From a virus (lineage: Duplodnaviria > Heunggongvirae > Uroviricota > Caudoviricetes), in IMG/VR virus record IMGVR_UViG_2529293142_000033: a DNA stretch of 54,512 nucleotides; one strand, given 5' to 3'. Within the stretch, counting starts at the first letter, position 1, and each line of letters starts with the position of its first letter. Shown piece by piece: positions 4,874 to 52,288 of this stretch. The notes under the pieces are model-generated. The model worked only from the letters and a program-made list of their open reading frames with translations. It did no database searches and had not been told where the DNA came from. The position numbers and the translations under genes are program-made.

Positions 4874-5698
4874 TCAGGCGGTGAAAGTACCAATAAAGGT
4901 TTCTACGTTGCTGTCTTTGAATTTCTCAACAAGCAGATCACGAAATTCGTTAGCCATATCTTCCTGCACCGCTTCCAGCTGAATAATGCGCAGAACCAGT
5001 ACAGGACGATCGCCAGTGATAATGCTGAGGCGTAATTTAAACGGACGTTCTTTCAGACCTTCAAACGGAACGCATTTAAATTCAAATGCCACTGGCATAA
5101 TGTCTTTGGTCTTCGCTTCGACAGATTCCATCAGGGAGCGTTTGCCGCTGAAGTCATTATCTTCAAAATCAGCGGTCTGGTTTGCTTCAATCGTGATTTT
5201 ACGGACTGCCGCAGCCGCTTTTGTTGCCTGAATAGCGTCACCATTAGCATCAAAGCCCACAAGGTAGTCGGCCCAGTCTTCAATCCATTCTGCCAGTGAC
5301 TTCTGGGAGTTACGCTCGCCGTTAACAGACAACAGGGCAGAGAACGGTGCTGTCTTTTTCAGTTTGAGAGTGGCGGTGTTATCTGCGTGACCTGGTTCAT
5401 CAATAGTACCCAGGTTAAGTACACTGACGGCACGCATATTATCAGCATCGATAAAGCAGCGGGTGCCTTCATCTGCAAGATCTTTAGAATAACGGGTAAA
5501 GTCATCGATGCTGGCAGTGGAAAGCGCACCACGGAAACGGAAGCGATTTAAATTAAATTTTTCCAGATCATGAATGCGGAAATTCTCAGGCAATGCCACA
5601 GCATCGGCACCAATCTTACTGATAATTTCATTAACACCCTGAGCAGAAATAAGGGCATGGATTTGATTAATTGCGGTTGCGTCTAAGTTCTGAGACAT
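4874..5698 (-). CDS. DUF2303 (YfdQ-like) phage protein
   Basis: 274-aa ORF resembling the YfdQ family found in CPS-53-type prophages (recalled). Confidence 0.6.
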
Positions 5699-5763: not shown

Positions 5764-6126
5764 TTAATGACCTGCTGCGCGTAGTTTTCCGTCAGGTTCA
5801 CCGGCAAGAGTCAGTAATTGTCCCTGGTCTTCCTGCAGAATAGTCAGGCGACCACCGCGATTGACATACATCGGCGTTTCGGTGGTGTCTTCTTCGGAAA
5901 TTTTCCCGCGGTTAGTCGGGCGAACATATGAGAGTTTGTGTTTGATTTTCACACGGTTCTCATCAAATGGTTCGATTTCCAGGTTGAGTGAGACCTTACC
6001 TTTGGTTTTCGTGTTCATCACACCTGAAGCGACTTCACTGAGAACTGCGCCGATTTTGGTTTCAAATACGCCGCCGTCCAGCTCCCCGATAAATGCCTGC
6101 ACATCAGTACTGCGTTCGCTAGCCAT
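5764..6126 (-). CDS. hypothetical phage protein (120 aa)
   Basis: start at ATG 6126 with gaggag RBS; the longer 182-aa ORF extension lacks an RBS. Confidence 0.55.
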   Translation of the reverse strand: MASERSTDVQAFIGELDGGVFETKIGAVLSEVASGVMNTKTKGKVSLNLEIEPFDENRVKIKHKLSYVRPTNRGKISEEDTTETPMYVNRGGRLTILQEDQGQLLTLAGEPDGKLRAAGH

Positions 6127-6989
6127 TTTGCTGCTCCTCATCATATCGACCCTGCAAGGTCGGTTGGTTTCTCCACAAAACAGAGAAGAACACCTGCGGT
6201 GGCAGCCGCCCGGATGGATTGGGTTATGAGCCCGTCGTCCGGTGATGCTCTTCTCTGTTTTGTAAAAAGAGCGGTACCAGCCGGAAGCAAGTGTACAAAC
6301 TGGTACCGCCAAAGCAGTGGCTGTTGTGGTGACCGGTGCTGATCTCCGGCTTGCGGTTATTTCAGACTCTCACGGGCGTTTAATTGCCCCGCCGAACAGC
6401 TCTTTTCCGCAATAGCTGCAATGTCTTTCGCGCATCAGCCTGCGCATTCACCACAACGCTGAGAGCACTTAGCCAGTTACGGCACCACACTTTGTCGCGG
6501 CTCCATAAATGCCCTCATCGTTGCCCCCTGGTCTCTTCCCAGGCGTCAAACCGAATCGCCACGCTGGTTAGGCGTCTTATCAGCATCATCATTGACTTGC
6601 ACATTCCGGCTACCTGGTTTGTTTGCCCGAGCAGGGAGTGGATAGTCCCCTTTAACGTCCCCAGACCGCTAACGACGCATGTGCCATACGCCGTGATACA
6701 ACAATATGTTCGGTATTAGTTACCAAAGAGACGATTACTCTTATGGTTGAATGTAATACCCATGTTGAATATTTTTCTTGCTTACTATTTGTTTTATCTA
6801 TGTGGTGAACTGGTTTTTGTTTACACAAGAAAAAGTTTTCTTAAGTAAGTTTACATTGTTTTGTCTTGCTATTTTTTTAAATTCAAGAACAATAAATTGC
6901 CGCTATCAGTAATTATTCTTTATGAAATTTTATAAATAACTCCCTGCTTTTGAGTTCTGTACGCAGTGTTTTTAGTTGTCGAGGACATA

Positions 6990-7199
6990 ATGGATAATCA
7001 AAATACACCTGTTTTTGATGTATGTGGTTGGTACTGTGTGCCCGTTAAAGATCATAATTCAGTTATAGTTCAACTGTCTTGTAAACAACCACCATTTGAA
7101 TCTGATAAAATTATCGAAAGTCCAATATATTCTTTTCCCATAAAAGAAATACCAAATCTCATAAATACATTACAAAACATTTATGAAGAAAATAATTGA
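6990..7199 (+). CDS. small hypothetical protein (69 aa) in AT-rich moron next to repressor
   Basis: ATG with gaggac RBS; preceded by about 270 bp very AT-rich DNA; followed by terminator. Confidence 0.45.
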   Translation: MDNQNTPVFDVCGWYCVPVKDHNSVIVQLSCKQPPFESDKIIESPIYSFPIKEIPNLINTLQNIYEENN

Positions 7200-7218
7200 T
7201 TATAAATCCAGTTCAAAA

Positions 7219-7248
7219 GTGAAGCGTCCATTTGGGCGCTTTTTTATT
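7219..7248 (+). terminator. rho-independent terminator
   Basis: gcgtcca ttt gggcgc hairpin plus T-run. Confidence 0.55.
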
Positions 7249-7394
7249 TACGAATCATTCCGGTCTTCGTATGCCCCGGACGGCTACTTCGTGGGCGTCC
7301 TGCCTGTTCGATATCTTATGTAGGTACATTATGTATCTGTAGGGTACATTGTCAAGTATAAAAAAACCTGCCGAAGCAGGTTCATAGACATTGA

Positions 7395-8068
7395 TCAGGC
7401 TTTAATTTTGTATCTTCTTGGTTTTCCTGAGAAAATAACTGTACCAATGATAGAGCAATTACCGTTTATCTTAATGTAAGGCTCAGGCCAGTTGGGGTTT
7501 AATGCTTTGAGATAACGCTGTGTCCCGTCTTCTATCAACCTTTTGAAGGTGGTTTCACCTGTATCGTGCATCAATGCAATAACGTCATCGCCGTGGCAGG
7601 CTGGTACTTCTGGATCGACAAAAATCATGTCTCCCGGACGGTACTCATCAATCATTGAATCACCAATCACCCTCAATATATAAGTCATTTCGCCACAGGG
7701 TACAGGGCAGGGATACGTTTCTGTTGTGCTCAAATCAACCTCAGAATAGCCAACTTCTTTCCATGCTCCGGCCTGTACCCATGATATGACAGGGACTAAC
7801 GTTATTTTTTATTAGTGATTGAAACATCAGGTTTTTTTGTGATGTTCGTTGTCTGGTGTTCTTGATCAAGCCATCCGACAGGCAGGTCGAAACATTTTTC
7901 GATGTGCCGTGCCATGCTGTCACCGATATTTTTAGTAGCGCCATCCCCCATAAACCTGCTGGTCTGGGTAGGCTCGCGATCAATCATGGTGGCAAAGGAT
8001 GAATTTCCGCCAACACCATCTCTCAGTTTTCTGGCGTTAGACCGCCGGATGTCATGGATTGTTTTCAT
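7395..8068 (-). pseudogene. CI-like repressor (N-terminal HTH plus C-terminal S24 LexA-type peptidase domain), reading frame broken by -1 shift at T6/A6 tract 7805-7810
   Basis: N-terminal ORF 7802-8068 (MKTIHDIRRSNARKL..) ends at the A-run; C-terminal frame from 7808 reads KITLVPVISWVQAGAWKE..GDSM (Ala-Gly autocleavage site and S24 motif); one extra A would fuse them. Confidence 0.75.
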
Positions 8069-8158
8069 AACGAAATTAAAACCTTTGTACCGATAAGGTA
8101 CAAGTATCTTGAAGGTTCATCTCAATCATGTAATATGTATACTGGAGGTACATGTTGT
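8069..8158. promoter_or_regulatory. divergent promoter/operator region between repressor and cro-like gene
   Basis: palindrome ctttgtacc-gataa-ggtacaag (8083-8103) and a further GGTACA half-site near the cro RBS. Confidence 0.55.
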
Positions 8159-8359
8159 ATGAAAGCGTATTGGGACTCTTTAACCAAAGAACAGCAGGGC
8201 GAGTTGGCCGGAAAAGTTGGCTCAACACCTGGCTACTTACGGCTGGTTTTCAATGGTTATAAAAAAGCCAGTTTTGTGCTGGCTAAAAAACTTGAGCAAT
8301 GCACGTCAGGTGCAATTACGAAATATGACTTAAGACCGGATATCTATCCGAAAGATTAA
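8159..8359 (+). CDS. Cro-like HTH regulator
   Basis: 66-aa protein starting at ATG 8159 with ggagg RBS; divergent from repressor. Confidence 0.65.
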   Translation: MKAYWDSLTKEQQGELAGKVGSTPGYLRLVFNGYKKASFVLAKKLEQCTSGAITKYDLRPDIYPKD

Positions 8360-8390
8360 CAGAACACCTTCAATTTTTAACCACAGAACG

Positions 8391-8954
8391 ATGAGGCTAA
8401 CCGTGGGTAAGCATCACTGGAAAGTAGAAAAACAGCCTGAGTGGTACGTGAAAGCTGTCAGAAAAACTATCGCGGCGTTGCCGGGAGGTTACGCTGAAGC
8501 TGCTGAGTGGCTGGATGTAACAGAGAACGCTTTATTCAACCGCCTTCGTGCAGATGGCGATCAGATTTTCCCGCTGGGATGGGCAATGATTTTACAGCGC
8601 GCGGCTGGCACTCACTACATTGCGGATGCTGTCGCACAGTCTGCTGGTGGGGTGTTTGTATCGCTTCCTGAACTTGAGGAAGTAGAGAACGCCGATATAA
8701 ACCAGCGCCTGCTGGAAGTCATCGAACAGATCGGGAGTTACTCAAAGCAGATTCGTTCGGCAATCGAAGATGGGGTAGTGGAGCCACACGAGCAGACAGC
8801 AATTAATGATGAGTTGTATCTGTCAATTTCGAAGCTCCAGGAGCATGCAGCACTGGTCTACAAAATCTTCTGCGCTCCAGAAAAGAGTGACGCCCGCGAG
8901 TGTGCAGCTCCGGGCGTCGTGGCGTTTTGTGTCTGTGGAGAAACTAACGCATGA
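8391..8954 (+). CDS. CII-like phage regulatory protein
   Basis: 187-aa ORF directly after cro-like gene; alternative GTG start at 8403. Confidence 0.55.
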   Translation: MRLTVGKHHWKVEKQPEWYVKAVRKTIAALPGGYAEAAEWLDVTENALFNRLRADGDQIFPLGWAMILQRAAGTHYIADAVAQSAGGVFVSLPELEEVENADINQRLLEVIEQIGSYSKQIRSAIEDGVVEPHEQTAINDELYLSISKLQEHAALVYKIFCAPEKSDARECAAPGVVAFCVCGETNA

Positions 8955-46080: not shown

Positions 46081-46526
46081 AAACGCATTGTTTGTGAGTT
46101 TTAGGCCTTATACCTTTGACGCCTTTCATTCAACAGAAAAAGAATTTCTTTGTCAATTTTATATTATATGTTGTGTTGCTTTTTGTTGTTTTTTTGATTT
46201 TTATTTTTATATTATTGCACGTTTTTGATTAAAACTTTGCTGGATGTTTGTGCGCGTTATAGAAAGCTGAAGATGAATAAATGTTTTCTTTAAAAGAAAA
46301 ACCGGCACGGTTGATGCCGGTTATATCAAGGAGTGATATAAAATGGGATGAAAGGATTGGAAAAAAGAACTTAATCAAAAGGCATCGTAGGATCAAGCGA
46401 ATATGCAAATATCGTTGTTTTTTATTGAATTACTATATTTTTGTAACGATTGATGGTCCATGGTTCGAGAGTGCATTGTCCTTCGGTGAAAGAAAAATCC
46501 GAAACATTGATCCTACCCACGTAATG

Positions 46527-46709
46527 TGGACACGGCCCTAAGCGAGATTATGGTTTTCAAATTGTTCCGGGCTGAGACCGCCACAGGCACTGTGACGACG
46601 CCAGCGATTGTAATCACACTCGATATAATTAAACACCGTTGCCCGCATTATTTCCCGGCTGCTAAAGCGTTCCCCGTGGATACATTCCACCTTCAGCGAA
46701 TGAAAGAAG
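46527..46709 (-). pseudogene. IS3-family transposase orfB, 3' fragment
   Basis: minus-strand translation ..[58 protein letters not shown] is a typical IS3-family OrfB C-terminus. Confidence 0.8.
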
Positions 46710-46907
46710 CTTTCTGCGTATTTTCATGAAAGGAGATCACTCAATAACTTCCATCGAGATCGGGTAATAACATTTGAACAGATCGCTGAATAACATCGAT
46801 GGAGATCACTTTTGACTCATTTTGTTATTCAGTGATCTCCATCAATGTTATTGGAACTTCACAGGTGTGTTGATCTGTATCTTTTGCCATTCCGGTAAAG
46901 GATACCT

Positions 46908-48449
46908 ATGCCAACAGTTCCAATTTCTATGAGAAAACTTAAAGAAATTCTTAGGCTTAAATACGGTGTTGGACTCAGCCATCGACAAATTGGTCGTAGT
47001 CTTGCAATCTCCCCTTCCGTTGTATCCAGATATGCTAATCGGGCGGCTCAACTTGGCATAAAGCAGTGGCCCTTACCTACAGGATGGGATGATACAAAAC
47101 TAAAACATGCGTTCCTTCAGACCCAGGTTAAGATGAAGAAGCACTCTCTGCCTGACTGGGCTACAGTACACCGGGAACTGCGTAATAAATGCGTGACGCT
47201 GCAGCTACTCTGGGAAGAATACTGTGAGCGTAATCCAGGCGGTTTTTACAGCTATAACCATTACTGCCGGATGTACCGTGAATGGCTCAAAACCACTTCA
47301 CCATCAATGCGTCAGGTACATAAAGCTGGCGAAAAACTTTTCGTTGATTACTGTGGACCTACCGTTGGCGTTACCGACCCTGAGACCGGAGAAATAAGAA
47401 CTGCTCAGGTCATCGTAGCTGTTCTCGGGGCATCAAGTTACACATGGGCAGAGGCCACCTGGTCTCAGCAGCTTGAAGACTGGGTGATGAGTCATGTTCG
47501 CTGCTTCCAGTGGTTGGGTGGCGTTCCTGAACTTGTTGTTCCGGACAATCTGAAAAGCGCCACATCCAGGGCATGTAAGTATGATCCTGACGTTAACCCT
47601 ACCTACCAGCAGATGCTTGAGCATTATAATGTCGCAGTTTTGCCTGCGCGGCCACGTAAACCGAAAGATAAAGCCAAAGCTGAAGTTGGCGTTCAGGTTG
47701 TTGAACGCTGGATCATGGCCCGAATCAGGCATGAGATCTTCTACAGCCTTGCATCGCTTAATCAGCGCATTCGGGAGTTGCTGGAAAGACTGAATAACAA
47801 AATAATGCAGAAGTTGGGTTATTCACGTGCAGAACTCTTCATCCAGCTTGATAAACCCGCACTGAAGCCTCTTCCTGAAGCCAGTTACAGTTACACCCTG
47901 GTGAAGAAAGTCAGAGTTCATGCCGATTACCACGTGGAAATCGACAAACATTACTACTCGGTTCCATGTTCGCTGTTAGGCCAGCAACTGGAAGCATGGA
48001 TCTCCGGAGAACTGGTAAGACTCTTCAATCAGGGGCAGGAGGTTGCTGTGCACCCGCGCAAGCGTACTTATGGCTACAGTACCCGCAACGAGCACATGCC
48101 TGAAGCTCATCGACAGCATGCCACCTGGACGCCAGAGCGTCTTCTGGAATGGGCGGGGCACATAGGCAGTGAAACTCATAGTTATGTGCTTCATATACTG
48201 AACTCTCGTCCACATCCGGAACAAAGCTATCGCTTCTGCCTTGGACTCCTGAACCTTCATAAAAAATACAGTAAAGCCAGACTTAATGCAGCATGTGCAA
48301 GAGCTCTGAAAACAAAGGTATGGCGTCTGTCAGGTATTAAATCGATCCTGGAAAAAGGTCTGGATAAACAACCTGTTCAGGATCCAAAACCAGATCTGTT
48401 ATCCACGATGGAACACGAAAACGTACGCGGCAGTGAGTATTACCACTGA
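46908..48449 (+). CDS. istA: IS21-family transposase IstA
   Basis: 513 aa with N-terminal HTH and DDE integrase-like core; followed by istB. Confidence 0.85.
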   Translation: MPTVPISMRKLKEILRLKYGVGLSHRQIGRSLAISPSVVSRYANRAAQLGIKQWPLPTGWDDTKLKHAFLQTQVKMKKHSLPDWATVHRELRNKCVTLQLLWEEYCERNPGGFYSYNHYCRMYREWLKTTSPSMRQVHKAGEKLFVDYCGPTVGVTDPETGEIRTAQVIVAVLGASSYTWAEATWSQQLEDWVMSHVRCFQWLGGVPELVVPDNLKSATSRACKYDPDVNPTYQQMLEHYNVAVLPARPRKPKDKAKAEVGVQVVERWIMARIRHEIFYSLASLNQRIRELLERLNNKIMQKLGYSRAELFIQLDKPALKPLPEASYSYTLVKKVRVHADYHVEIDKHYYSVPCSLLGQQLEAWISGELVRLFNQGQEVAVHPRKRTYGYSTRNEHMPEAHRQHATWTPERLLEWAGHIGSETHSYVLHILNSRPHPEQSYRFCLGLLNLHKKYSKARLNAACARALKTKVWRLSGIKSILEKGLDKQPVQDPKPDLLSTMEHENVRGSEYYH

Positions 48450-48460
48450 TACGGGATCCA

Positions 48461-49210
48461 ATGATGAATCATCTTTACGAACAACTGACCGCACTTAAAC
48501 TCACCGGCTTCCGTGATGCGCTTAAAAAGCAACTTGCTCAGCCGGGCACATACCAGGAGCTGGGCTTCGAAGAACGCCTGTCATTACTGACAGCAGAAGA
48601 ACTAACCTGCCGTGAAAACAGGAAGGCAGAGCGTCTGATCAAACATGCACGGTTCAGACTTAATGCTGAGTTATCAAAGCTGGATTATCGTAACAATAGA
48701 GGGCTGGACAGGGCCCTCATCCGTTCACTCAGTCAGGGAAACTGGTTAACCCTGAAACAAAATATTTTACTGACCGGGGCCACCGGCAGCGGTAAAACGT
48801 TCCTGGCATGTGCACTTGGTCATAATGCCTGCCGACAGGGATACAAGGTCTACTATTATCGCCTTAAAGCGCTGATGGAACAGTGCTATCAGGGGCATGC
48901 TGATGGAAGATACAGCAAACTTTTGACCAGGCTGAATAATAGCGATCTGCTGCTTCTGGATGACTGGGGGCTGGAACCTCTCTCATCAGAACAGCGTAGC
49001 GACCTGCTGGAAATAGTGGATCTGATGTACCAACGAGGCTCAATCATCGTAGTGAGCCAGTTGCCGGTGGAAAACTGGTACAAAATGATCGGAGACTCCA
49101 CACATGCGGATGCCATCCTAGATCGACTGGTTCATGGCAGTATCAAGATCGAACTTAAAGGAGAATCAATGCGGAAAATACAATCTCCGTTGACCGAAGG
49201 AGATCAGTGA
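48461..49210 (+). CDS. istB: IS21-family ATP-binding helper IstB
   Basis: 249 aa with Walker A LLTGATGSGKTF and Walker B LLLLDDWG. Confidence 0.85.
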   Translation: MMNHLYEQLTALKLTGFRDALKKQLAQPGTYQELGFEERLSLLTAEELTCRENRKAERLIKHARFRLNAELSKLDYRNNRGLDRALIRSLSQGNWLTLKQNILLTGATGSGKTFLACALGHNACRQGYKVYYYRLKALMEQCYQGHADGRYSKLLTRLNNSDLLLLDDWGLEPLSSEQRSDLLEIVDLMYQRGSIIVVSQLPVENWYKMIGDSTHADAILDRLVHGSIKIELKGESMRKIQSPLTEGDQ

Positions 49211-49267
49211 AGGTAATTTAAAAACGGTTCTGTGAAAGTGACACGAACCGATCTCCATCGATGTTAC

Positions 49268-49978
49268 TCACCGATCTCCTTCACGGTAATACGCACTTTC
49301 CACACAGGCATTGTCATAACAGTAGCCTTTCGCACTCATACTGCCACGCAGGTTGTGTCGCTTCAGCAGCGCCTGATAATCCCCTGAACAGTATTGACCA
49401 CCACGGTCCGTATGAACAATGACGCTTTCCGGGCGTCTTCTCCGCCACAACGCCATTTGCAGTGCATCACAGGCCAGTTGTACTGTCATTCGCGGTGACA
49501 TCGACCAGCCAATGACGGCGCGTGACCACAGGTCGATGACTACTGCGAGATACAACCAGCCCTCATCGGTACGCAAGTATGTGATGTCACCCGCCCACTT
49601 CTGGTTCGGGCCACTGGCGCTGAAGTCCTGCTCCAGCAGATTCTCCAATACGGGCAGGCCATGTGCACGGTAGCTGACCGGGCTGAACTTCCGGCTGGCT
49701 TTCGCCTGCAGCCCCTGACGACGTAGGCTGGCGGCAATGGTTTTAATATTGAACTCCGGCAGTTCGTCAGCAAGGCGGGGAGCACCGTATCGCTGCTTTG
49801 CCTCAAAGAATGCCTTATGGACAGCGGCATCGCAGGTGAGCCGAAACTGTTGGCGCAGGCTCATCTGGTGACGACGCCTGAGCCAGACATACCAGCCGCT
49901 GCGGGCAACCCGAAGTACACGACACATCACTTTGATGCTGAACTCTGCCCGATGATTTTCGATGAAGACATACTTCAT
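49268..49978 (-). pseudogene. IS3-family transposase orfB, 5' part (truncated by IS21 insertion; last codons read into IS21 end)
   Basis: ..[46 protein letters not shown] then unrelated tail; matches IS3-family OrfB. Confidence 0.8.
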
Positions 49979-50199
49979 TTCAGGCGGACATTTTCAGCGG
50001 CCAGTTCGCTTTCGCGCTCTGACGAACTCATTTGTTGCTGCTGTTTACTGCGCCAGGTATAAAGCTGAGATTCATACAGGCTGAGTTCACGGGCTGCGGC
50101 GGCCACACCGATGCGTTCAGTGAGTTTCAGGGCTTCGTTACGAAATTCAGGCGTATGTTGTTTACGGGGCTTCTTGCTGATTGATACTGGTTTTGTCAT
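49975..50199 (-). CDS. IS3-family transposase orfA
   Basis: 74-aa HTH protein overlapping orfB start, typical orfA/orfB frameshift arrangement. Confidence 0.7.
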
Positions 50200-50299
50200 G
50201 AGTCACCTCTGGTTGAGAGTTTACTCACTTAGTCCTGTGTCCACTATTGGTGGGTAAGATCATTCTGATATCAGTCCAAAGCAAATGCATCAGTGTAAT

Positions 50300-51130
50300 T
50301 CAGAGAATGATTTTGGGATATGTAATGAAGTAATGCTTAAACTTTTTTGGAGTTATTCCAAAATATTCCCTAAATTTTTTTATGAAGTATGATGGACTCG
50401 ACATTCCTACTTCCGATGATATCTGAGATATCTGGAGATTGTTTTCGATTATAAGATCCATAGCTCTATTTAATCTTATTTGTAAAGCCATTCCGCTGAT
50501 GGTCAAATTTTCTTTTGCAAGTCGTTTTCTTACTGCAGACTCAGATAGGTGAAAATGCTTAGCTATATCCCGAACGCACCATTTTCTCTTTATGTTCATT
50601 TCAATAAATGCTCTTACCTTATCACTAAAGTGACTGACAGATGATGTAAGCAACGAACGAATGATGTAATCACGATCTTTGAATTTTGAGATAAAAAGTA
50701 GCGTCTTAATCAAAATTAGTTTTTCATCATTGGTAGTTGCAAGTTTTTTGAAAAAGAGTATAAGCTCATCTGTAGGCGTAAGTGTCAGTATTTTATCTCT
50801 TGATATTGCTGATTGATTAATTACCTGATGCCCTTTAAAGTAGATTTCTGCAATTACTCGTCGGAGTGTTTGTAGTTTATCCTCGTTGAATCTTATTGCC
50901 ACATATGGTTCTTTATGTTCATCATTCTTTTTCAGGTAGGCAGAAAAACAAGTTCCTTTATCAATGAAAATGAATTGGTTAAACCCGCATGTCAGTTTTT
51001 TATTTGATAGTGAGAAATTAATAGTGCAATTATTTGTATAAAGAATGATATATTTACTGGTTCTTATGTTAACGATCTTTAACTTTCTTTGTGAATGATG
51101 TTTGATGCTATTAATCATGTGTTTAGCCAT
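50300..51130 (-). CDS. AraC-family transcriptional regulator (AT-rich, horizontally acquired)
   Basis: 276 aa; C-terminal double-HTH (VRDIAKHFHLSESAVRKRLAKENLTISGMALQIRLNRAMDL..ISQISSEVGMSSPSYFIKKFREYFGITPKKF); markedly AT-rich gene. Confidence 0.8.
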   Translation of the reverse strand: MAKHMINSIKHHSQRKLKIVNIRTSKYIILYTNNCTINFSLSNKKLTCGFNQFIFIDKGTCFSAYLKKNDEHKEPYVAIRFNEDKLQTLRRVIAEIYFKGHQVINQSAISRDKILTLTPTDELILFFKKLATTNDEKLILIKTLLFISKFKDRDYIIRSLLTSSVSHFSDKVRAFIEMNIKRKWCVRDIAKHFHLSESAVRKRLAKENLTISGMALQIRLNRAMDLIIENNLQISQISSEVGMSSPSYFIKKFREYFGITPKKFKHYFITYPKIIL

Positions 51131-52026
51131 TTTTTTGGGGTGTGGTAATTATAACTATCAACTTCCTCAATGGAATATCTTGGCATTAAAAATAGGATGT
51201 TTTTATTAAATTTTGGCCGCTGTGGTTAAAGTAAAGGATGAGTTAATATCCAGTCCATCCTTAATGGGAGTGATTAGTTCACCATCAGATAAATCGTAAG
51301 TGGTGTTTTTGGGGGCTCGTCAAGCTCAAAAATGGCCGGGAGAAAATTGGATATAACTACAGGGTAGGACTTACGAAAGTGACAGAGTTGCTATAGGAAT
51401 ATAAAAACATTCATGGTGAACTGGGGTCTGAAAAGTCACATGCCCTCATTAGAAATGGTAGCATTTTAAGTGTGGGAATGAAAAACAGAAGAGCAAAAAT
51501 CATCCATAATATGTAGAATTAGATCATGTCAACCCATATTTAGTCCTTGTTCGATAGCAAGCCTCATTGACTTCGCCGTTATCACCAGATATGGCGAGTT
51601 CTTTGTAAGTGGGAGAGCTATTTTTAGATGTCGTGCAGCAGACATTTTTGCCGAGCGCTTCATCCGGAGCGATGAACCGTAGATTTTTCTGGTTGGAGCC
51701 GATCATATGTGATGCTATGGGGATATTTTTTCAGTAGGCTAGGTGGGAATTGTACCGTTAATATTATAGGCTTCTACCCAGTAAAAAGAGGCGAGGAAAC
51801 ATGCACGACAGGTGCTACACGTCATGCATAGATTGGGATTACTCATGACTAGCCACAGCTATAGGTCGTTAAGAGATTCGCAGCACGCTGTATGCAATAA
51901 CGTGCTGCGGCTGGCTGGTGAACTTTCGATAGTGCGAGTATTGAATGATTTCCAGCCGTTACCGATTTTACGTGTTTATTATTGAACAAACCACTCGTCA
52001 GCAGACTCCCTGGTATCTTTCAGAGT

Positions 52027-52227
52027 CTACTGAACAAATGTTTTTGCAGAATCCTTATCTGCGGTGCGTGTAACAGAAAGCTCATCATTGCTGGTGGCTT
52101 TTACGATCACTTCTACATCGTCATAACGCTTACTGATGCGCCGAGTTAATTCTTCCTTTAACGCATCCACAGCACTGTTTGGCATTTTAGTCATTTTCTC
52201 TTTGGCTATGCAGATATCAATACGCAT
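52027..52227 (-). CDS. DinI-like protein
   Basis: 66 aa, [26 protein letters not shown] resembles DinI. Confidence 0.6.
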
Positions 52228-52288
52228 AAAAATCCCTCCACGCTGTGTTTATATACAGTGTTATTTTTAACTGTGTAAATAAACAGTA

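What the first reader, a model, noticed from the sequence alone, without database searches (positions are those of the whole stretch)
6720..7250. AT-rich moron beside the repressor (rex-equivalent position)
About 270 bp of very AT-rich DNA followed by a 69-aa ORF (6990-7199) with its own RBS and terminator is inserted between the leftward early operon and the repressor gene. The local composition contrasts sharply with flanking phage DNA. In lambda this position holds rexAB, so it is a typical slot for exclusion or defence cargo.
Basis: partly seen in the sequence, partly recalled or inferred. Interest (0 to 1): 0.5.

Follow-up and report, generated by a model that had tools for sequence, protein, structure and literature searches.

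The report
BssS-like moron facing prophage PL
The AT-rich block is a real 540-bp accessory gene cassette in an SfV-like prophage; its 69-aa product is a distant, shortened relative of the bacterial biofilm regulator BssS, it sits just beyond the leftward early promoter and so not in the lambda rex slot, and nothing ties it to phage defence.

Summary
Window 6711-7249 is 29.5% GC, against 43-51% in the flanks. It carries a 69-aa ORF (6990-7199) with a GAGGA ribosome-binding site and an intrinsic terminator. It is an indel: phages cdtI and Ayreon join 6710 to 7298 with 6 nt between. The ORF is a real gene (dN/dS 0.08-0.13 against plasmid homologues).

The rex analogy fails. The repressor's terminator is followed at once by a near-consensus leftward promoter with an operator palindrome (PL/OL, 7328-7355). 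The cassette lies beyond that promoter and faces it.

The protein matched nothing in Pfam, PHROGs, PADLOC or NCBIfam, but profile methods place it as a divergent, C-terminally short member of the BssS family (PF13991): hhalign 96.7%, E 4.6e-10. An independent family HMM picks it as the only hit in the window.

Canonical BssS-family genes occupy the same slot beside cI-type repressors in Salmonella phage F1055 and in 22 of 22 related viral contigs, and in a similar position in one Pseudomonas phage. These loci span at least six repressor types.

Best reading: a lysogen-expressed moron that modulates host physiology in a BssS-like way. That function is inferred, not shown. It is a new member of a known kind, of modest interest.

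The parts
6711..7249 (.). The AT-rich accessory cassette (moron) as a whole, 539 bp, 29.5% GC
   Evidence: It is an indel relative to cdtI and Ayreon (6710 joined to 7298) and is replaced by other cargo in SfV, e14 and L033. Composition. It is present in 30 of 5426 complete E. coli genomes, in 16 plasmids and in 0 phage records.
6711..6989 (+). Non-coding AT-rich upstream region, taken to hold the gene's promoter and 5' UTR. Candidates only: TTGAAT-17-TATTTT at 6747-6775 and TTGCTA-16-AACAAT at 6866-6893.
   Evidence: No conserved ORF: the small ORFs are broken by indels in relatives, and 6711-6850 is only 89-92% identical to close relatives against 96-98% for the ORF. The last ~150 nt (about 6850-6989) are weakly conserved with the IncF homologues. 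The strict promoter scan found none on the + strand; a relaxed scan gave the two candidates.
6981..6985 (+). Shine-Dalgarno sequence GAGGA, 4 nt before the ATG
   Evidence: Read from the sequence. It is conserved as GGAGG in the IncF homologues, whose nucleotide similarity starts at window 6978.
6990..7199 (+). 69-aa gene for a small acidic protein (pI 4.4, net charge -5.4), a divergent and C-terminally short BssS-family member
7221..7250 (+). Intrinsic terminator of the 69-aa gene. Read on the minus strand it gives a weaker hairpin plus CACUUUUG.
   Evidence: Terminator scan. It is conserved, with a different loop, 80-81% identical, after the IncF homologues.
7250..7310 (-). Segment D, the conserved leader of the leftward transcript. 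It is nut-like: an invariant 30 nt followed by a covarying 5-bp stem-loop with a GAAGA-containing loop. Its left edge (7250/7251) is the shared junction for the alternative cargos.
   Evidence: 83-90% identical across phages with different repressors. All 5 pairs of the 5-bp stem show compensatory changes in at least one sequence, in 10 sequences. It is shared with SfV and e14 but not cdtI.
7328..7355 (-). Probable PL with OL: TTGACA-16-CATAAT (11 of 12), with the operator palindrome TGTATC-N5-GGTACA at 7332-7348 in the spacer
   Evidence: Promoter scan. The palindrome TGTACC-N5-GGTACA occurs at 7332, 8086 and 8136; 6 hits in the window against 1.23 expected. The Ayreon record annotates a promoter at the homologous place.
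7364..7383 (-). Terminator of the repressor gene
   Evidence: Terminator scan. The SfV and Ayreon records annotate a terminator at this place.
7395..8068 (-). SfV/e14-type (ymfK/cohE) LexA-like repressor gene, split here by a 1-nt deletion into ORFs 7802-8068 and 7395-7733
   Evidence: Pfam Peptidase_S24, E 8e-24, on the C-terminal ORF. 673 of 674 nt identical to the intact ymfK of L001. All 16 relatives carry the extra base.

Best explanation
Window 6711-7249 is a horizontally acquired accessory cassette (a 'moron') in an SfV/e14-immunity lambdoid prophage.

It lies immediately downstream of the leftward early promoter/operator (PL/OL, 7328-7355) and its conserved leader (7250-7310), but it points the other way. 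An AT-rich promoter/5'-UTR region (6711-6989) is followed by a ribosome-binding site, a 69-aa gene (6990-7199) and an intrinsic terminator (7221-7250).

The product is a small acidic cytoplasmic protein with a four-strand sheet and a C-terminal helix. It is a divergent member of the BssS family (PF13991; E. coli BssS/YceP) that lacks the last ~15 residues.

Inferred mechanism:
- In the lysogen PL is repressed, so the convergent gene is free to be transcribed from its own promoter. That transcription is possibly damped by H-NS on the AT-rich DNA.
- The protein then acts as BssS does, through protein-protein contacts, to shift host signalling, biofilm or stress physiology. This would be a lysogenic-conversion function.
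- On induction, PL transcription runs head-on into the gene and would shut it off.

Shown: the anatomy, the indel status, purifying selection, family membership, and the recurrent slot. Inferred: the promoter, expression in lysogens, H-NS silencing, and the physiological effect.
For: - Anatomy and composition.
- Indel among phages with the same immunity and the same left block.
- Purifying selection, with nucleotide homology on IncF plasmids confined to RBS + ORF + terminator.
- PL/OL assignment.
- BssS-family membership:
  - An exhaustive profile search finds P0007 (E 7e-6) and P0010 (E 3.4e-4).
  - P0007 scores 31.6 bits on PF13991, above the cut-off of 27.
  - hhalign of the window family alone against phage and chromosomal BssS proteins gives Prob 96.7%, E 4.6e-10 over 62 columns.
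  - An HMM built without window-family sequences scores the ORF 23.3 bits.
  - An HMM built also without P0007 and P0010 picks the ORF as the only significant hit among 724 stop-to-stop segments of the window: E 7e-5, next best 1.5.
  - Strand and helix positions of two separately computed AF2 models coincide in the hhalign register.
- Same slot elsewhere:
  - F1055 gp37 (61.9 bits on PF13991) lies convergent to a cI-type S24 repressor in the same early-region layout.
  - PseuP_224 has a BssS-family gene (66.5 bits) just upstream of cI.
  - P0007's contig has the gene beside a cI/Cro pair.
  - 22 of 22 IMG/VR loci have a cI-type repressor 0.2-2 kb downstream (19 of 22 within 0.85 kb), 20 of them convergent, of at least 6 repressor types, including the window's ymfK type at 86-87% identity.
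- BssS phenotypes: the yceP mutant has more biofilm and lower intracellular indole (PMC1899176, which cites Domka 2006, PMC1448992). bssS contributes to colonisation resistance in the mouse gut and is stress-induced (PMC3646849).
Against: - The Pfam BssS model itself does not detect the window ORF, even at E up to 10.
- BLASTP against E. coli BssS finds nothing.
- hhalign against chromosomal BssS orthologues alone is not significant (E 0.26). Membership therefore rests on phage-borne intermediates.
- The protein lacks the conserved C-terminal tail, including the terminal His.
- No sigma-70 promoter passes the strict scan.
- There are no expression data.
- The molecular mechanism of BssS itself is unknown, so 'works like BssS' is a phenotype-level statement.
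- Conserved adjacency to cI could instead mean a role in the phage's own regulation.
Confidence: 0.55

Rival explanations
1. Superinfection-exclusion or anti-phage defence cargo. The small protein, made in the lysogen, would block infection by other phages.
For: - It is a lysogen-side, self-contained cassette next to the immunity region, with a patchy distribution (30 of 5426 genomes).
- Single small prophage proteins can exclude phages (established knowledge).
Against: - No PADLOC hit at E up to 10.
- It is not in the rex slot and is not co-transcribed with the repressor.
- It has no membrane segment and no enzymatic motif.
- Its homologues are BssS-family proteins, whose chromosomal member has biofilm and signalling phenotypes, not phage phenotypes.
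- The same gene also sits on IncF plasmids beside adhesin genes, outside any phage context.
Confidence: 0.15
2. A phage regulatory accessory. The BssS-like protein would act on the lysis-lysogeny circuit itself, for example by modulating repressor stability or cleavage, or a host factor needed for induction. That would explain why the family stays next to cI.
For: - BssS-family genes lie within ~2 kb of cI-type repressors (mostly within 0.85 kb) in F1055, PseuP_224, L012 and 22 of 22 viral loci, across at least 6 repressor types and two host genera.
- The convergent arrangement with PL would couple its expression inversely to induction.
- Chromosomal bssS lies beside the SOS gene dinI.
Against: - Many phages with identical immunity (SfV, cdtI, Ayreon, e14, Stx2c phages) lack any BssS-like gene, so it is dispensable for the switch.
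- There is no LexA box in the cassette.
- The conserved junction at segment D can explain the co-location by recombination alone.
- The IncF copies have no repressor nearby.
Confidence: 0.15
3. Non-functional passenger DNA. The AT-rich block would be a decaying remnant or merely spacer/regulatory DNA, with a fortuitous ORF.
For: - A 69-aa ORF appears in 3.5% of shuffles of the cassette.
- There was no family hit in four curated libraries.
- The gene is rare: 4 protein clusters in 5.8 billion, and it is absent from 185,579 species-representative genomes.
Against: - dN/dS is 0.08-0.13 with a third-position bias, and the frame is intact in every copy except one truncated fragment.
- RBS, ORF and terminator are conserved as a unit in unrelated plasmid contexts.
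- Profile similarity to a real protein family is significant.
Confidence: 0.05

Closest known systems
BssS / YceP of E. coli (Pfam PF13991, NCBIfam NF008958)
   Same: - A small (69 vs 84 aa) acidic protein (pI 4.4 vs 4.8).
- Shared G-W motif, the hydrophobic 'A-h-h-h-K/R-h' strand, and the C-terminal helix motif (NLIxxLQ vs QFISILE).
- Same order and register of strands and helix in the AF2 models.
- Significant profile-level similarity through phage intermediates.
   Different: - About 13% pairwise identity.
- Not detected by the Pfam or NCBIfam models, nor by BLASTP.
- Lacks the ~15-residue C-terminal tail ending in the conserved His.
- Has three Cys that are absent from BssS.
- 29% GC, prophage- or plasmid-borne and rare, whereas bssS is a core chromosomal gene beside dinI.
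BssS-family gene gp37 of Salmonella phage F1055 and its relatives in IMG/VR prophages
   Same: - Same genomic slot: + strand, between the conserved yfdP-side non-coding block and segment D/PL, convergent with a cI-type repressor.
- Same early-region layout: cro, ymfL-like, Rha-like.
- In L028 and L033 the neighbouring repressor is the window's own type, 86-87% identical.
   Different: - These are full-length (83 aa), clear Pfam members (62 bits), with GC like the phage (44-50%).
- The window gene is about 17% identical to gp37, shorter and AT-rich, and has a long AT-rich upstream region.
Lambda rexA-rexB
   Same: Accessory cargo at the left side of the immunity region, presumably expressed in the lysogen.
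   Different: rexAB lie between cI and PL/OL, on the cI strand, and are co-transcribed with cI (established knowledge). This cassette lies beyond PL/OL, on the opposite strand, with its own signals. There is no sequence or defence-model similarity.
Classical phage morons (as in HK97/HK022; also the low-GC Q-lysis moron described for SfIV, PMC3851460)
   Same: - Presence/absence polymorphism between close relatives.
- Deviant low GC.
- Own terminator and a presumed own promoter.
- Placed between two phage transcription units.
   Different: The promoter is not identified, and expression from the prophage is not shown. The location, facing PL, is unusual compared with the late-region morons usually described.
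SfV orf33, e14 ymfJ/ymfI and SfIV orf35/36 (alternative occupants of the slot)
   Same: They abut the same junction at the left edge of segment D (window 7250/7251) in phages with the same repressor.
   Different: orf33 and ymfJ are on the minus strand, as first genes of the PL transcript. No DNA similarity to the cassette was found; their proteins were not compared with the 69-aa product.

Membership tests
BssS protein family (PF13991) | Match to the curated Pfam model at or above the gathering score (27 bits) | tested here: not met
   There is no hit for the window ORF or its IncF homologue P0002, even at E up to 10. NCBIfam also gives none.
BssS protein family (PF13991) | Statistically significant profile similarity to proteins that do pass the Pfam cut-off | tested here: met
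   - P0007 (31.6 bits), F1055 gp37 (61.9 bits) and the PseuP_224 protein (66.5 bits) all pass the cut-off.
- The window-family profile finds P0007 at E 7e-6 in 1.84 billion proteins.
- hhalign A2 vs A8: Prob 96.7%, E 4.6e-10.
- HMMs built without window-family sequences: 23.3 bits, and E 7e-5 as the only hit in the window.
- Against chromosomal BssS orthologues alone the match is not significant: E 0.26.
BssS protein family (PF13991) | Full-length architecture: about 80-85 aa, with a C-terminal tail after the helix that ends in a conserved His | tested here: not met
   The protein is 69 aa and ends inside or just after the helix (YEENN). The IncF homologues stop at the same place, and the terminator follows 22 nt later, so there is no tail remnant.
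BssS protein family (PF13991) | Shared fold (strands, then a long C-terminal helix) in the same register | tested here: inconclusive
   ORF model: E12-19, E24-32, E41-43, E47-50, H51-68 (pLDDT 67). BssS model: E7-13, E16-23, E26-33, E45-53, H54-72 (pLDDT 63). These are congruent with the +2/+3 offset of the hhalign alignment. However, both models are of moderate confidence, no solved BssS structure exists, and no pairwise structure superposition was possible.
BssS protein family (PF13991) | Biofilm or signalling phenotype | not testable with these tools
   Phenotypes are known only for E. coli yceP/bssS (PMC1899176, PMC3646849).
Phage moron | Present in some and absent from other closely related phages, at a precise junction | tested here: met
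   cdtI and Ayreon join 6710 to 7298. SfV, e14 and L033 carry other DNA between about 6312-6356 and 7250.
Phage moron | Base composition different from the surrounding phage genome | tested here: met
   29.5% GC against 52.5% for the window. It is one of the three lowest-GC islands in the window.
Phage moron | Own terminator | tested here: met
   9-bp stem at 7221-7242 plus a T-run. It is conserved after the plasmid homologues.
Phage moron | Own promoter, and transcription in the lysogen | tested here: inconclusive
   There is no + strand gene upstream that could supply read-through. The strict scan found no promoter, and only weak candidates exist at 6747-6775 and 6866-6893. Expression cannot be tested here.
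Lambda rex-type slot / exclusion operon | Located between the repressor gene and PL/OL, and co-transcribed with the repressor | tested here: not met
   The repressor's stop (7395), its terminator (7383-7364) and PL/OL (7355-7328) are contiguous. The cassette is beyond PL and on the other strand.
Known anti-phage defence systems (PADLOC-DB 2.0) | Match to any defence-protein model | tested here: not met
   0 families at E up to 10.

The most novel reading that the evidence does not exclude
BssS-family proteins would be, at root, accessory factors of temperate-phage immunity regions. Their conserved placement facing PL, next to cI-type repressors of many specificities in Escherichia, Salmonella and Pseudomonas phages, would reflect a function tied to lysogeny: coupling the host's stress or signalling state to prophage maintenance, or excluding rivals. 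The chromosomal 'biofilm regulator' bssS, which lies beside dinI, would be a domesticated copy whose biofilm phenotypes are secondary. The AT-rich 69-aa form would be a minimal version that shows which part of the protein is essential.
Probability: 0.15. Interest if true: 0.6.

Novelty: new member of a known kind. Interest (0 to 1): 0.3.

Why it matters
As it stands, this is a rare accessory gene with no demonstrated function, so its direct importance is small.

Two things give it some value.

- It assigns a 'hypothetical protein' that four curated libraries miss (WP_021559686-type, on prophages and on Salmonella and E. coli plasmids) to the BssS family. It also defines a minimal 69-residue core of that family.
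- The comparison showed that BssS-family genes recurrently sit beside cI-type repressors and mostly face PL. I found no paper describing this placement. BssS has been called a biofilm regulator since 2006 without a molecular mechanism, so a phage context offers testable partners and conditions: lysogen against induced state, transcriptional interference from PL.

The case also corrects a tempting positional analogy. 'Next to cI' is not the same as 'rex slot'.

Tried and rejected
- Curated libraries. Pfam, PHROGs, PADLOC and NCBIfam gave nothing usable for the 69-aa protein; the best was phrog_10846 at E 0.31. Rfam gave nothing credible over 5900-8400.
- Word-indexed search. The search of 5.8 billion proteins found only 4 near-identical clusters. 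The same search seeded with P0007 found only P0007 itself.
- Direct comparison with E. coli BssS. BLASTP found nothing. Profile against chromosomal orthologues alone gave E 0.26. Only phage-borne intermediates bridge the gap.
- Structure searches.
  - Foldseek on BFVD: best E 0.017. A 67-aa 'BssS protein family protein' appeared only at rank 18, E 0.2.
  - The afdb50 library was unavailable.
  - No PDB entry exists for the BssS family.
- Hidden small genes. Small hydrophobic ORFs in the AT-rich upstream DNA (33 and 44 aa) were considered as a hidden toxin or membrane peptide. They were rejected because frame-breaking indels occur among close relatives.
- SOS control. A LexA box in the cassette was looked for and not found.
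- DinI linkage. A DinI homologue near phage BssS-like genes was looked for. The only one lies 45 kb away in the window.
- Leader structure. Folding the whole leader 7215-7322 as one RNA was not better than shuffles (z = -0.94). Only the comparative analysis of segment D showed a covarying stem.
- Collection scans. The alignment A8 was too divergent for the pattern-based locus finder. P0007 gave no viral-contig relatives. The window family gave no hit in the species-representative genomes.
- Literature. 'BssS' with 'prophage' returned only irrelevant hits (for example the enzyme Nb.BssSI). 'PF13991' returned none.
Full report
**1. The observation.**

GC falls from 54-56% (6200-6699) to 27-29% (6700-6999) and 28.5% (7000-7199), and recovers to 41-48% over the repressor gene. 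The cassette as later delimited (6711-7249) is 29.5% GC, against 52.5% for the whole window.

An ORF runs from the ATG at 6990 to the stop codon ending at 7199 (69 aa). GAGGA lies at 6981-6985. A 9-bp hairpin at 7221-7242 followed by TTTTTTATTT scores as an intrinsic terminator.

A 69-codon ORF in such DNA is only mildly improbable: 3.5% of shuffles reach it. The case for a gene therefore rests on comparison.

**2. It is a real gene.**

The cassette occurs in 30 of 5426 complete E. coli genomes at 93.7-95.2% identity. It occurs in no deposited phage genome. It occurs on 16 Salmonella and E. coli plasmids, within prophage remnants next to artAB.

A diverged copy (77-78% nt) lies on IncF plasmids beside hmwA/hmwC adhesin genes. 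There the similarity covers only window 6978-7203 plus the terminator, that is, RBS, ORF and terminator as a unit.

Against those copies dN/dS is 0.08-0.13, and 27 of 45-50 differences are at third positions. Against the chromosomal relative L001, all 4 differences are synonymous.

The upstream AT-rich DNA contains no conserved ORF: indels break the small ORFs among close relatives. It diverges faster (89-92% identity for 6711-6850) than the ORF (96-98%). Its last ~150 nt are weakly conserved even with the IncF copies, as expected of a promoter and 5' UTR.

**3. Where it sits.**

The surrounding genes are those of an SfV/CPS-53-like lambdoid prophage.
- Leftward lie yfdP, yfdQ and yfdR homologues (5764-6126 and beyond).
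- Rightward lie a ymfK/cohE-type LexA-like repressor on the minus strand, then cro (ymfT), ymfL and a Rha-family gene.

The repressor region is 94% identical to that of SfV, SfIV, cdtI, Ayreon, 2H10, Stx2c phages and e14. It occurs in 2060 of 5426 E. coli genomes.

The repressor gene ends at 7395 and its terminator is at 7383-7364. Directly after it comes a minus-strand promoter, TTGACA-16-CATAAT (7355-7328, 11 of 12). Its spacer holds the palindrome TGTATC-N5-GGTACA. The same palindrome type occurs twice between the repressor and cro (8086-8102 perfect, 8136-8152). There are 6 matches in the window against 1.23 expected, and no shuffle reached 6. The Ayreon record annotates a promoter at the homologous position. 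I therefore read 7328-7355 as PL/OL.

The cassette lies beyond this promoter and on the opposite strand. It is not in the rex position, which in lambda is between cI and PL/OL and on the cI transcript. It occupies the first position downstream of PL and faces it.

**4. Indel test.**
- cdtI and Ayreon match the window up to about 6702-6710 and again from 7298, with 6 nt between in cdtI. The window therefore carries 587 extra bases.
- SfV and e14 share 7250-7297 with the window, and to the left of it carry orf33 or ymfJ/ymfI instead.
- The SfIV paper notes two unique ORFs (35 and 36) just before cI, and states that these phages lack N, cII and cIII (PMC3851460).
- In all comparisons the right-hand junction is at 7250/7251, the left edge of a 60-nt segment (D, 7250-7310). 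This segment is 83-90% identical even among phages with unrelated repressors.

The slot is thus a genuine cargo hot spot, and the cassette proper is 6711-7249.

**5. What the protein is.**

Pfam, PHROGs, PADLOC and NCBIfam gave nothing. The word-indexed search of 5.8 billion proteins found only four near-identical clusters.

An exhaustive hmmsearch of 1.84 billion cluster representatives, using a profile of the window protein and its two IncF homologues, added two 84-85-aa proteins: P0007 (E 7e-6) and P0010 (E 3.4e-4). P0007 passes the Pfam gathering score for PF13991, the BssS family (31.6 against 27 bits).

tblastn with P0007 then found gp37 of Salmonella phage F1055 and a protein of Pseudomonas phage PseuP_224. 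Both are clear BssS-family members, at 61.9 and 66.5 bits.

Direct tests gave the following:
- BLASTP of the ORF against E. coli BssS: nothing.
- hhalign of the window family against chromosomal BssS orthologues alone: E 0.26, though in the right register.
- hhalign of the window family alone against an alignment of phage and chromosomal BssS proteins: Prob 96.7%, E 4.6e-10 over 62 columns.
- An HMM of about 125 family members without any window-family sequence: 23.3 bits for the ORF and 28-35 bits for its IncF homologues.
- An HMM that also excludes P0007 and P0010: the ORF is the only significant hit among all 724 stop-to-stop segments of the window (E 7e-5; next best 1.5).

Two AlphaFold models were built separately, and their alignments shared no sequences. 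The ORF model came from its own three-sequence alignment and the BssS model from BssS sequences plus P0007. Both are of moderate confidence (pLDDT 67 and 63). They show the same strand-strand-strand-helix order at positions that coincide in the hhalign register.

The alignment shows the shared G-W motif, the following hydrophobic strands, the P-P/T-P turn and the helix motif (NLIxxLQ against QFISILE). It also shows that the window protein stops about 15 residues short of the family's C-terminus.

I conclude that it is a divergent, shortened BssS-family protein. By the curated model's own threshold it is not a member, and I record that.

**6. The slot recurs.**

In F1055 the BssS-family gene lies on the + strand between the conserved yfdP-side block and segment D. 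It is convergent with a small minus-strand gene and an S24-type cI, followed by cro, a ymfL-like gene and a 1158-nt gene in the Rha position. This is the same layout as the window.

P0007's contig has the gene next to a cI/Cro pair. In PseuP_224 the gene is just upstream of cI.

A scan of IMG/VR with gp37 gave 22 loci (59-100% identity).
- All 22 have a cI-type repressor 0.2-2 kb downstream; 19 lie within about 0.85 kb.
- In 20 loci the repressor is on the opposite strand.
- The repressors fall into at least six types, including the window's ymfK type at 86-87% (L028, L033).

These loci are related phages, so they are not 22 independent events. The diversity of the adjoining repressors nevertheless shows that the gene persists through immunity-module exchange.

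The canonical phage copies have phage-like GC (44-50%). The window copy and its IncF relatives are AT-rich (29% and 33-36%).

**7. How it most likely works.**

Shown:
- a self-contained + strand unit (RBS, gene, terminator) under purifying selection;
- its position facing PL;
- BssS-family ancestry;
- an acidic, soluble protein (pI 4.4, net charge -5.4) with no membrane segment.

Inferred:
- A promoter lies in 6711-6989. Only weak sigma-70 candidates were found, at 6747-6775 and 6866-6893.
- The gene is expressed in the lysogen, when PL is repressed.
- H-NS damps expression on the 29%-GC DNA (general knowledge of xenogeneic silencing).
- Head-on transcription from PL shuts the gene off on induction.
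- The protein acts in a BssS-like way on the host.

For E. coli BssS the literature gives phenotypes only. The yceP mutant makes more biofilm and has less intracellular indole (PMC1899176, citing Domka et al. 2006). bssS is stress-induced and contributes to colonisation resistance in mice (PMC3646849).

I put 0.55 on the lysogenic-conversion reading, 0.15 on exclusion or defence, 0.15 on a role in the phage's own switch, and 0.05 on junk.

**8. Novelty and score.**

It is a moron (a known kind) encoding a remote member of a known but mechanistically obscure family. I file it as a new member of a known kind.

The wider pattern, BssS-family genes beside cI-type repressors and mostly facing PL, was not found in the searchable literature, although databases already label some phage proteins 'BssS family'. 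It deserves a systematic census.

Interest is 0.3.

**9. Side observations.**

Segment D on the minus strand has a 30-nt invariant stretch and a 5-bp stem-loop in which all five pairs show compensatory changes in at least one of the 10 phages compared. The loop contains GAAGA, as in lambda boxB. This looks like a nut-like site in phages reported to lack N.

On the same strand, a terminator hairpin (6312-6270) with swapped stems, followed by a long, covarying 24-bp hairpin (6268-6166), precedes yfdP. Neither element has an Rfam match.

The window's repressor gene carries a 1-nt deletion that all 16 relatives lack, including a 99.8%-identical prophage.

A dinI homologue at 51985-52227 has two SOS boxes upstream. 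A strong SOS box lies at 13043-13062.

Noticed in passing
window 7250-7310, minus strand: A conserved leader right after the putative PL. It has a 30-nt invariant stretch (CGAACAGGCAGGACGCCCACGAAGUAGCC) followed by a 5-bp stem-loop with compensatory changes in all 5 pairs across 10 phages of different immunity types. The loop, GGCRUAYGAAGA, contains the GAAGA of lambda boxB. This is a nut-like element in a phage group reported to lack N (PMC3851460). There is no Rfam hit. Its left edge (7250/7251) is the common junction for alternative cargo.
   Followed up: partly
window 6166-6312, minus strand: A terminator-like hairpin (6312-6270, followed by UUUUUAC) whose stem is replaced by different complementary sequences in F1055, L031 and L036. 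It is followed by a highly conserved ~100-nt hairpin (24-bp stem, several compensatory pairs) just upstream of yfdP. The element is annotated as ORFs (ymfH, mEp460_036, cdtI orf40) in various records, and there is no Rfam hit.
   Followed up: partly
window ~7803 (repressor gene 7395-8068, minus strand): The ymfK/cohE-type repressor is split into an 88-aa HTH ORF (7802-8068) and a 112-aa S24 ORF (7395-7733) by a single-base deletion. All 16 relatives compared, including a 99.8%-identical IMG/VR prophage, carry the extra base. It is either a sequencing error or a genuinely inactivated or non-inducible repressor.
   Followed up: partly
window 51985-52286: A DinI homologue (41% identical to E. coli DinI) on the minus strand at 51985-52227, with two perfect CTGT-N8-ACAG LexA-type boxes just upstream (52243-52258 and 52271-52286).
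   Followed up: no
window 13043-13062: A strong SOS box, TACTGTATTTATGAACAGTA (3 mismatches to the 20-nt consensus, none expected by chance), in the rightward early region near the KilA-N/DUF968 genes. It may mark a LexA-controlled antirepressor-type module.
   Followed up: no
window 46150-51130: Two further ~29-30% GC islands. One (50300-51130, minus strand) encodes a 276-aa ORF whose C-terminus looks like an AraC-family regulator by eye; it was not scanned. Next to these lie ORFs that look like IS21-type istA/istB (46908-49210) and IS3-type transposase fragments (49268-50199), also not scanned.
   Followed up: no
L004 and L005 (IncF plasmids AP026448, NZ_CP059839), around 5010-5222: The 77-78% homologue of the 69-aa gene sits downstream of hmwA/hmwC-type adhesin and glycosyltransferase genes, a DUF2919 gene and an HTH regulator. 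The short BssS-like form therefore also travels with plasmid adhesin loci.
   Followed up: partly
L011 (E. coli K-12) 11158-11944: Chromosomal bssS lies directly beside the SOS gene dinI. Both are small genes whose homologues also occur in prophages, which raises the possibility that the pair is of prophage origin. No dinI homologue was found within 3 kb of the phage BssS-like genes examined.
   Followed up: partly
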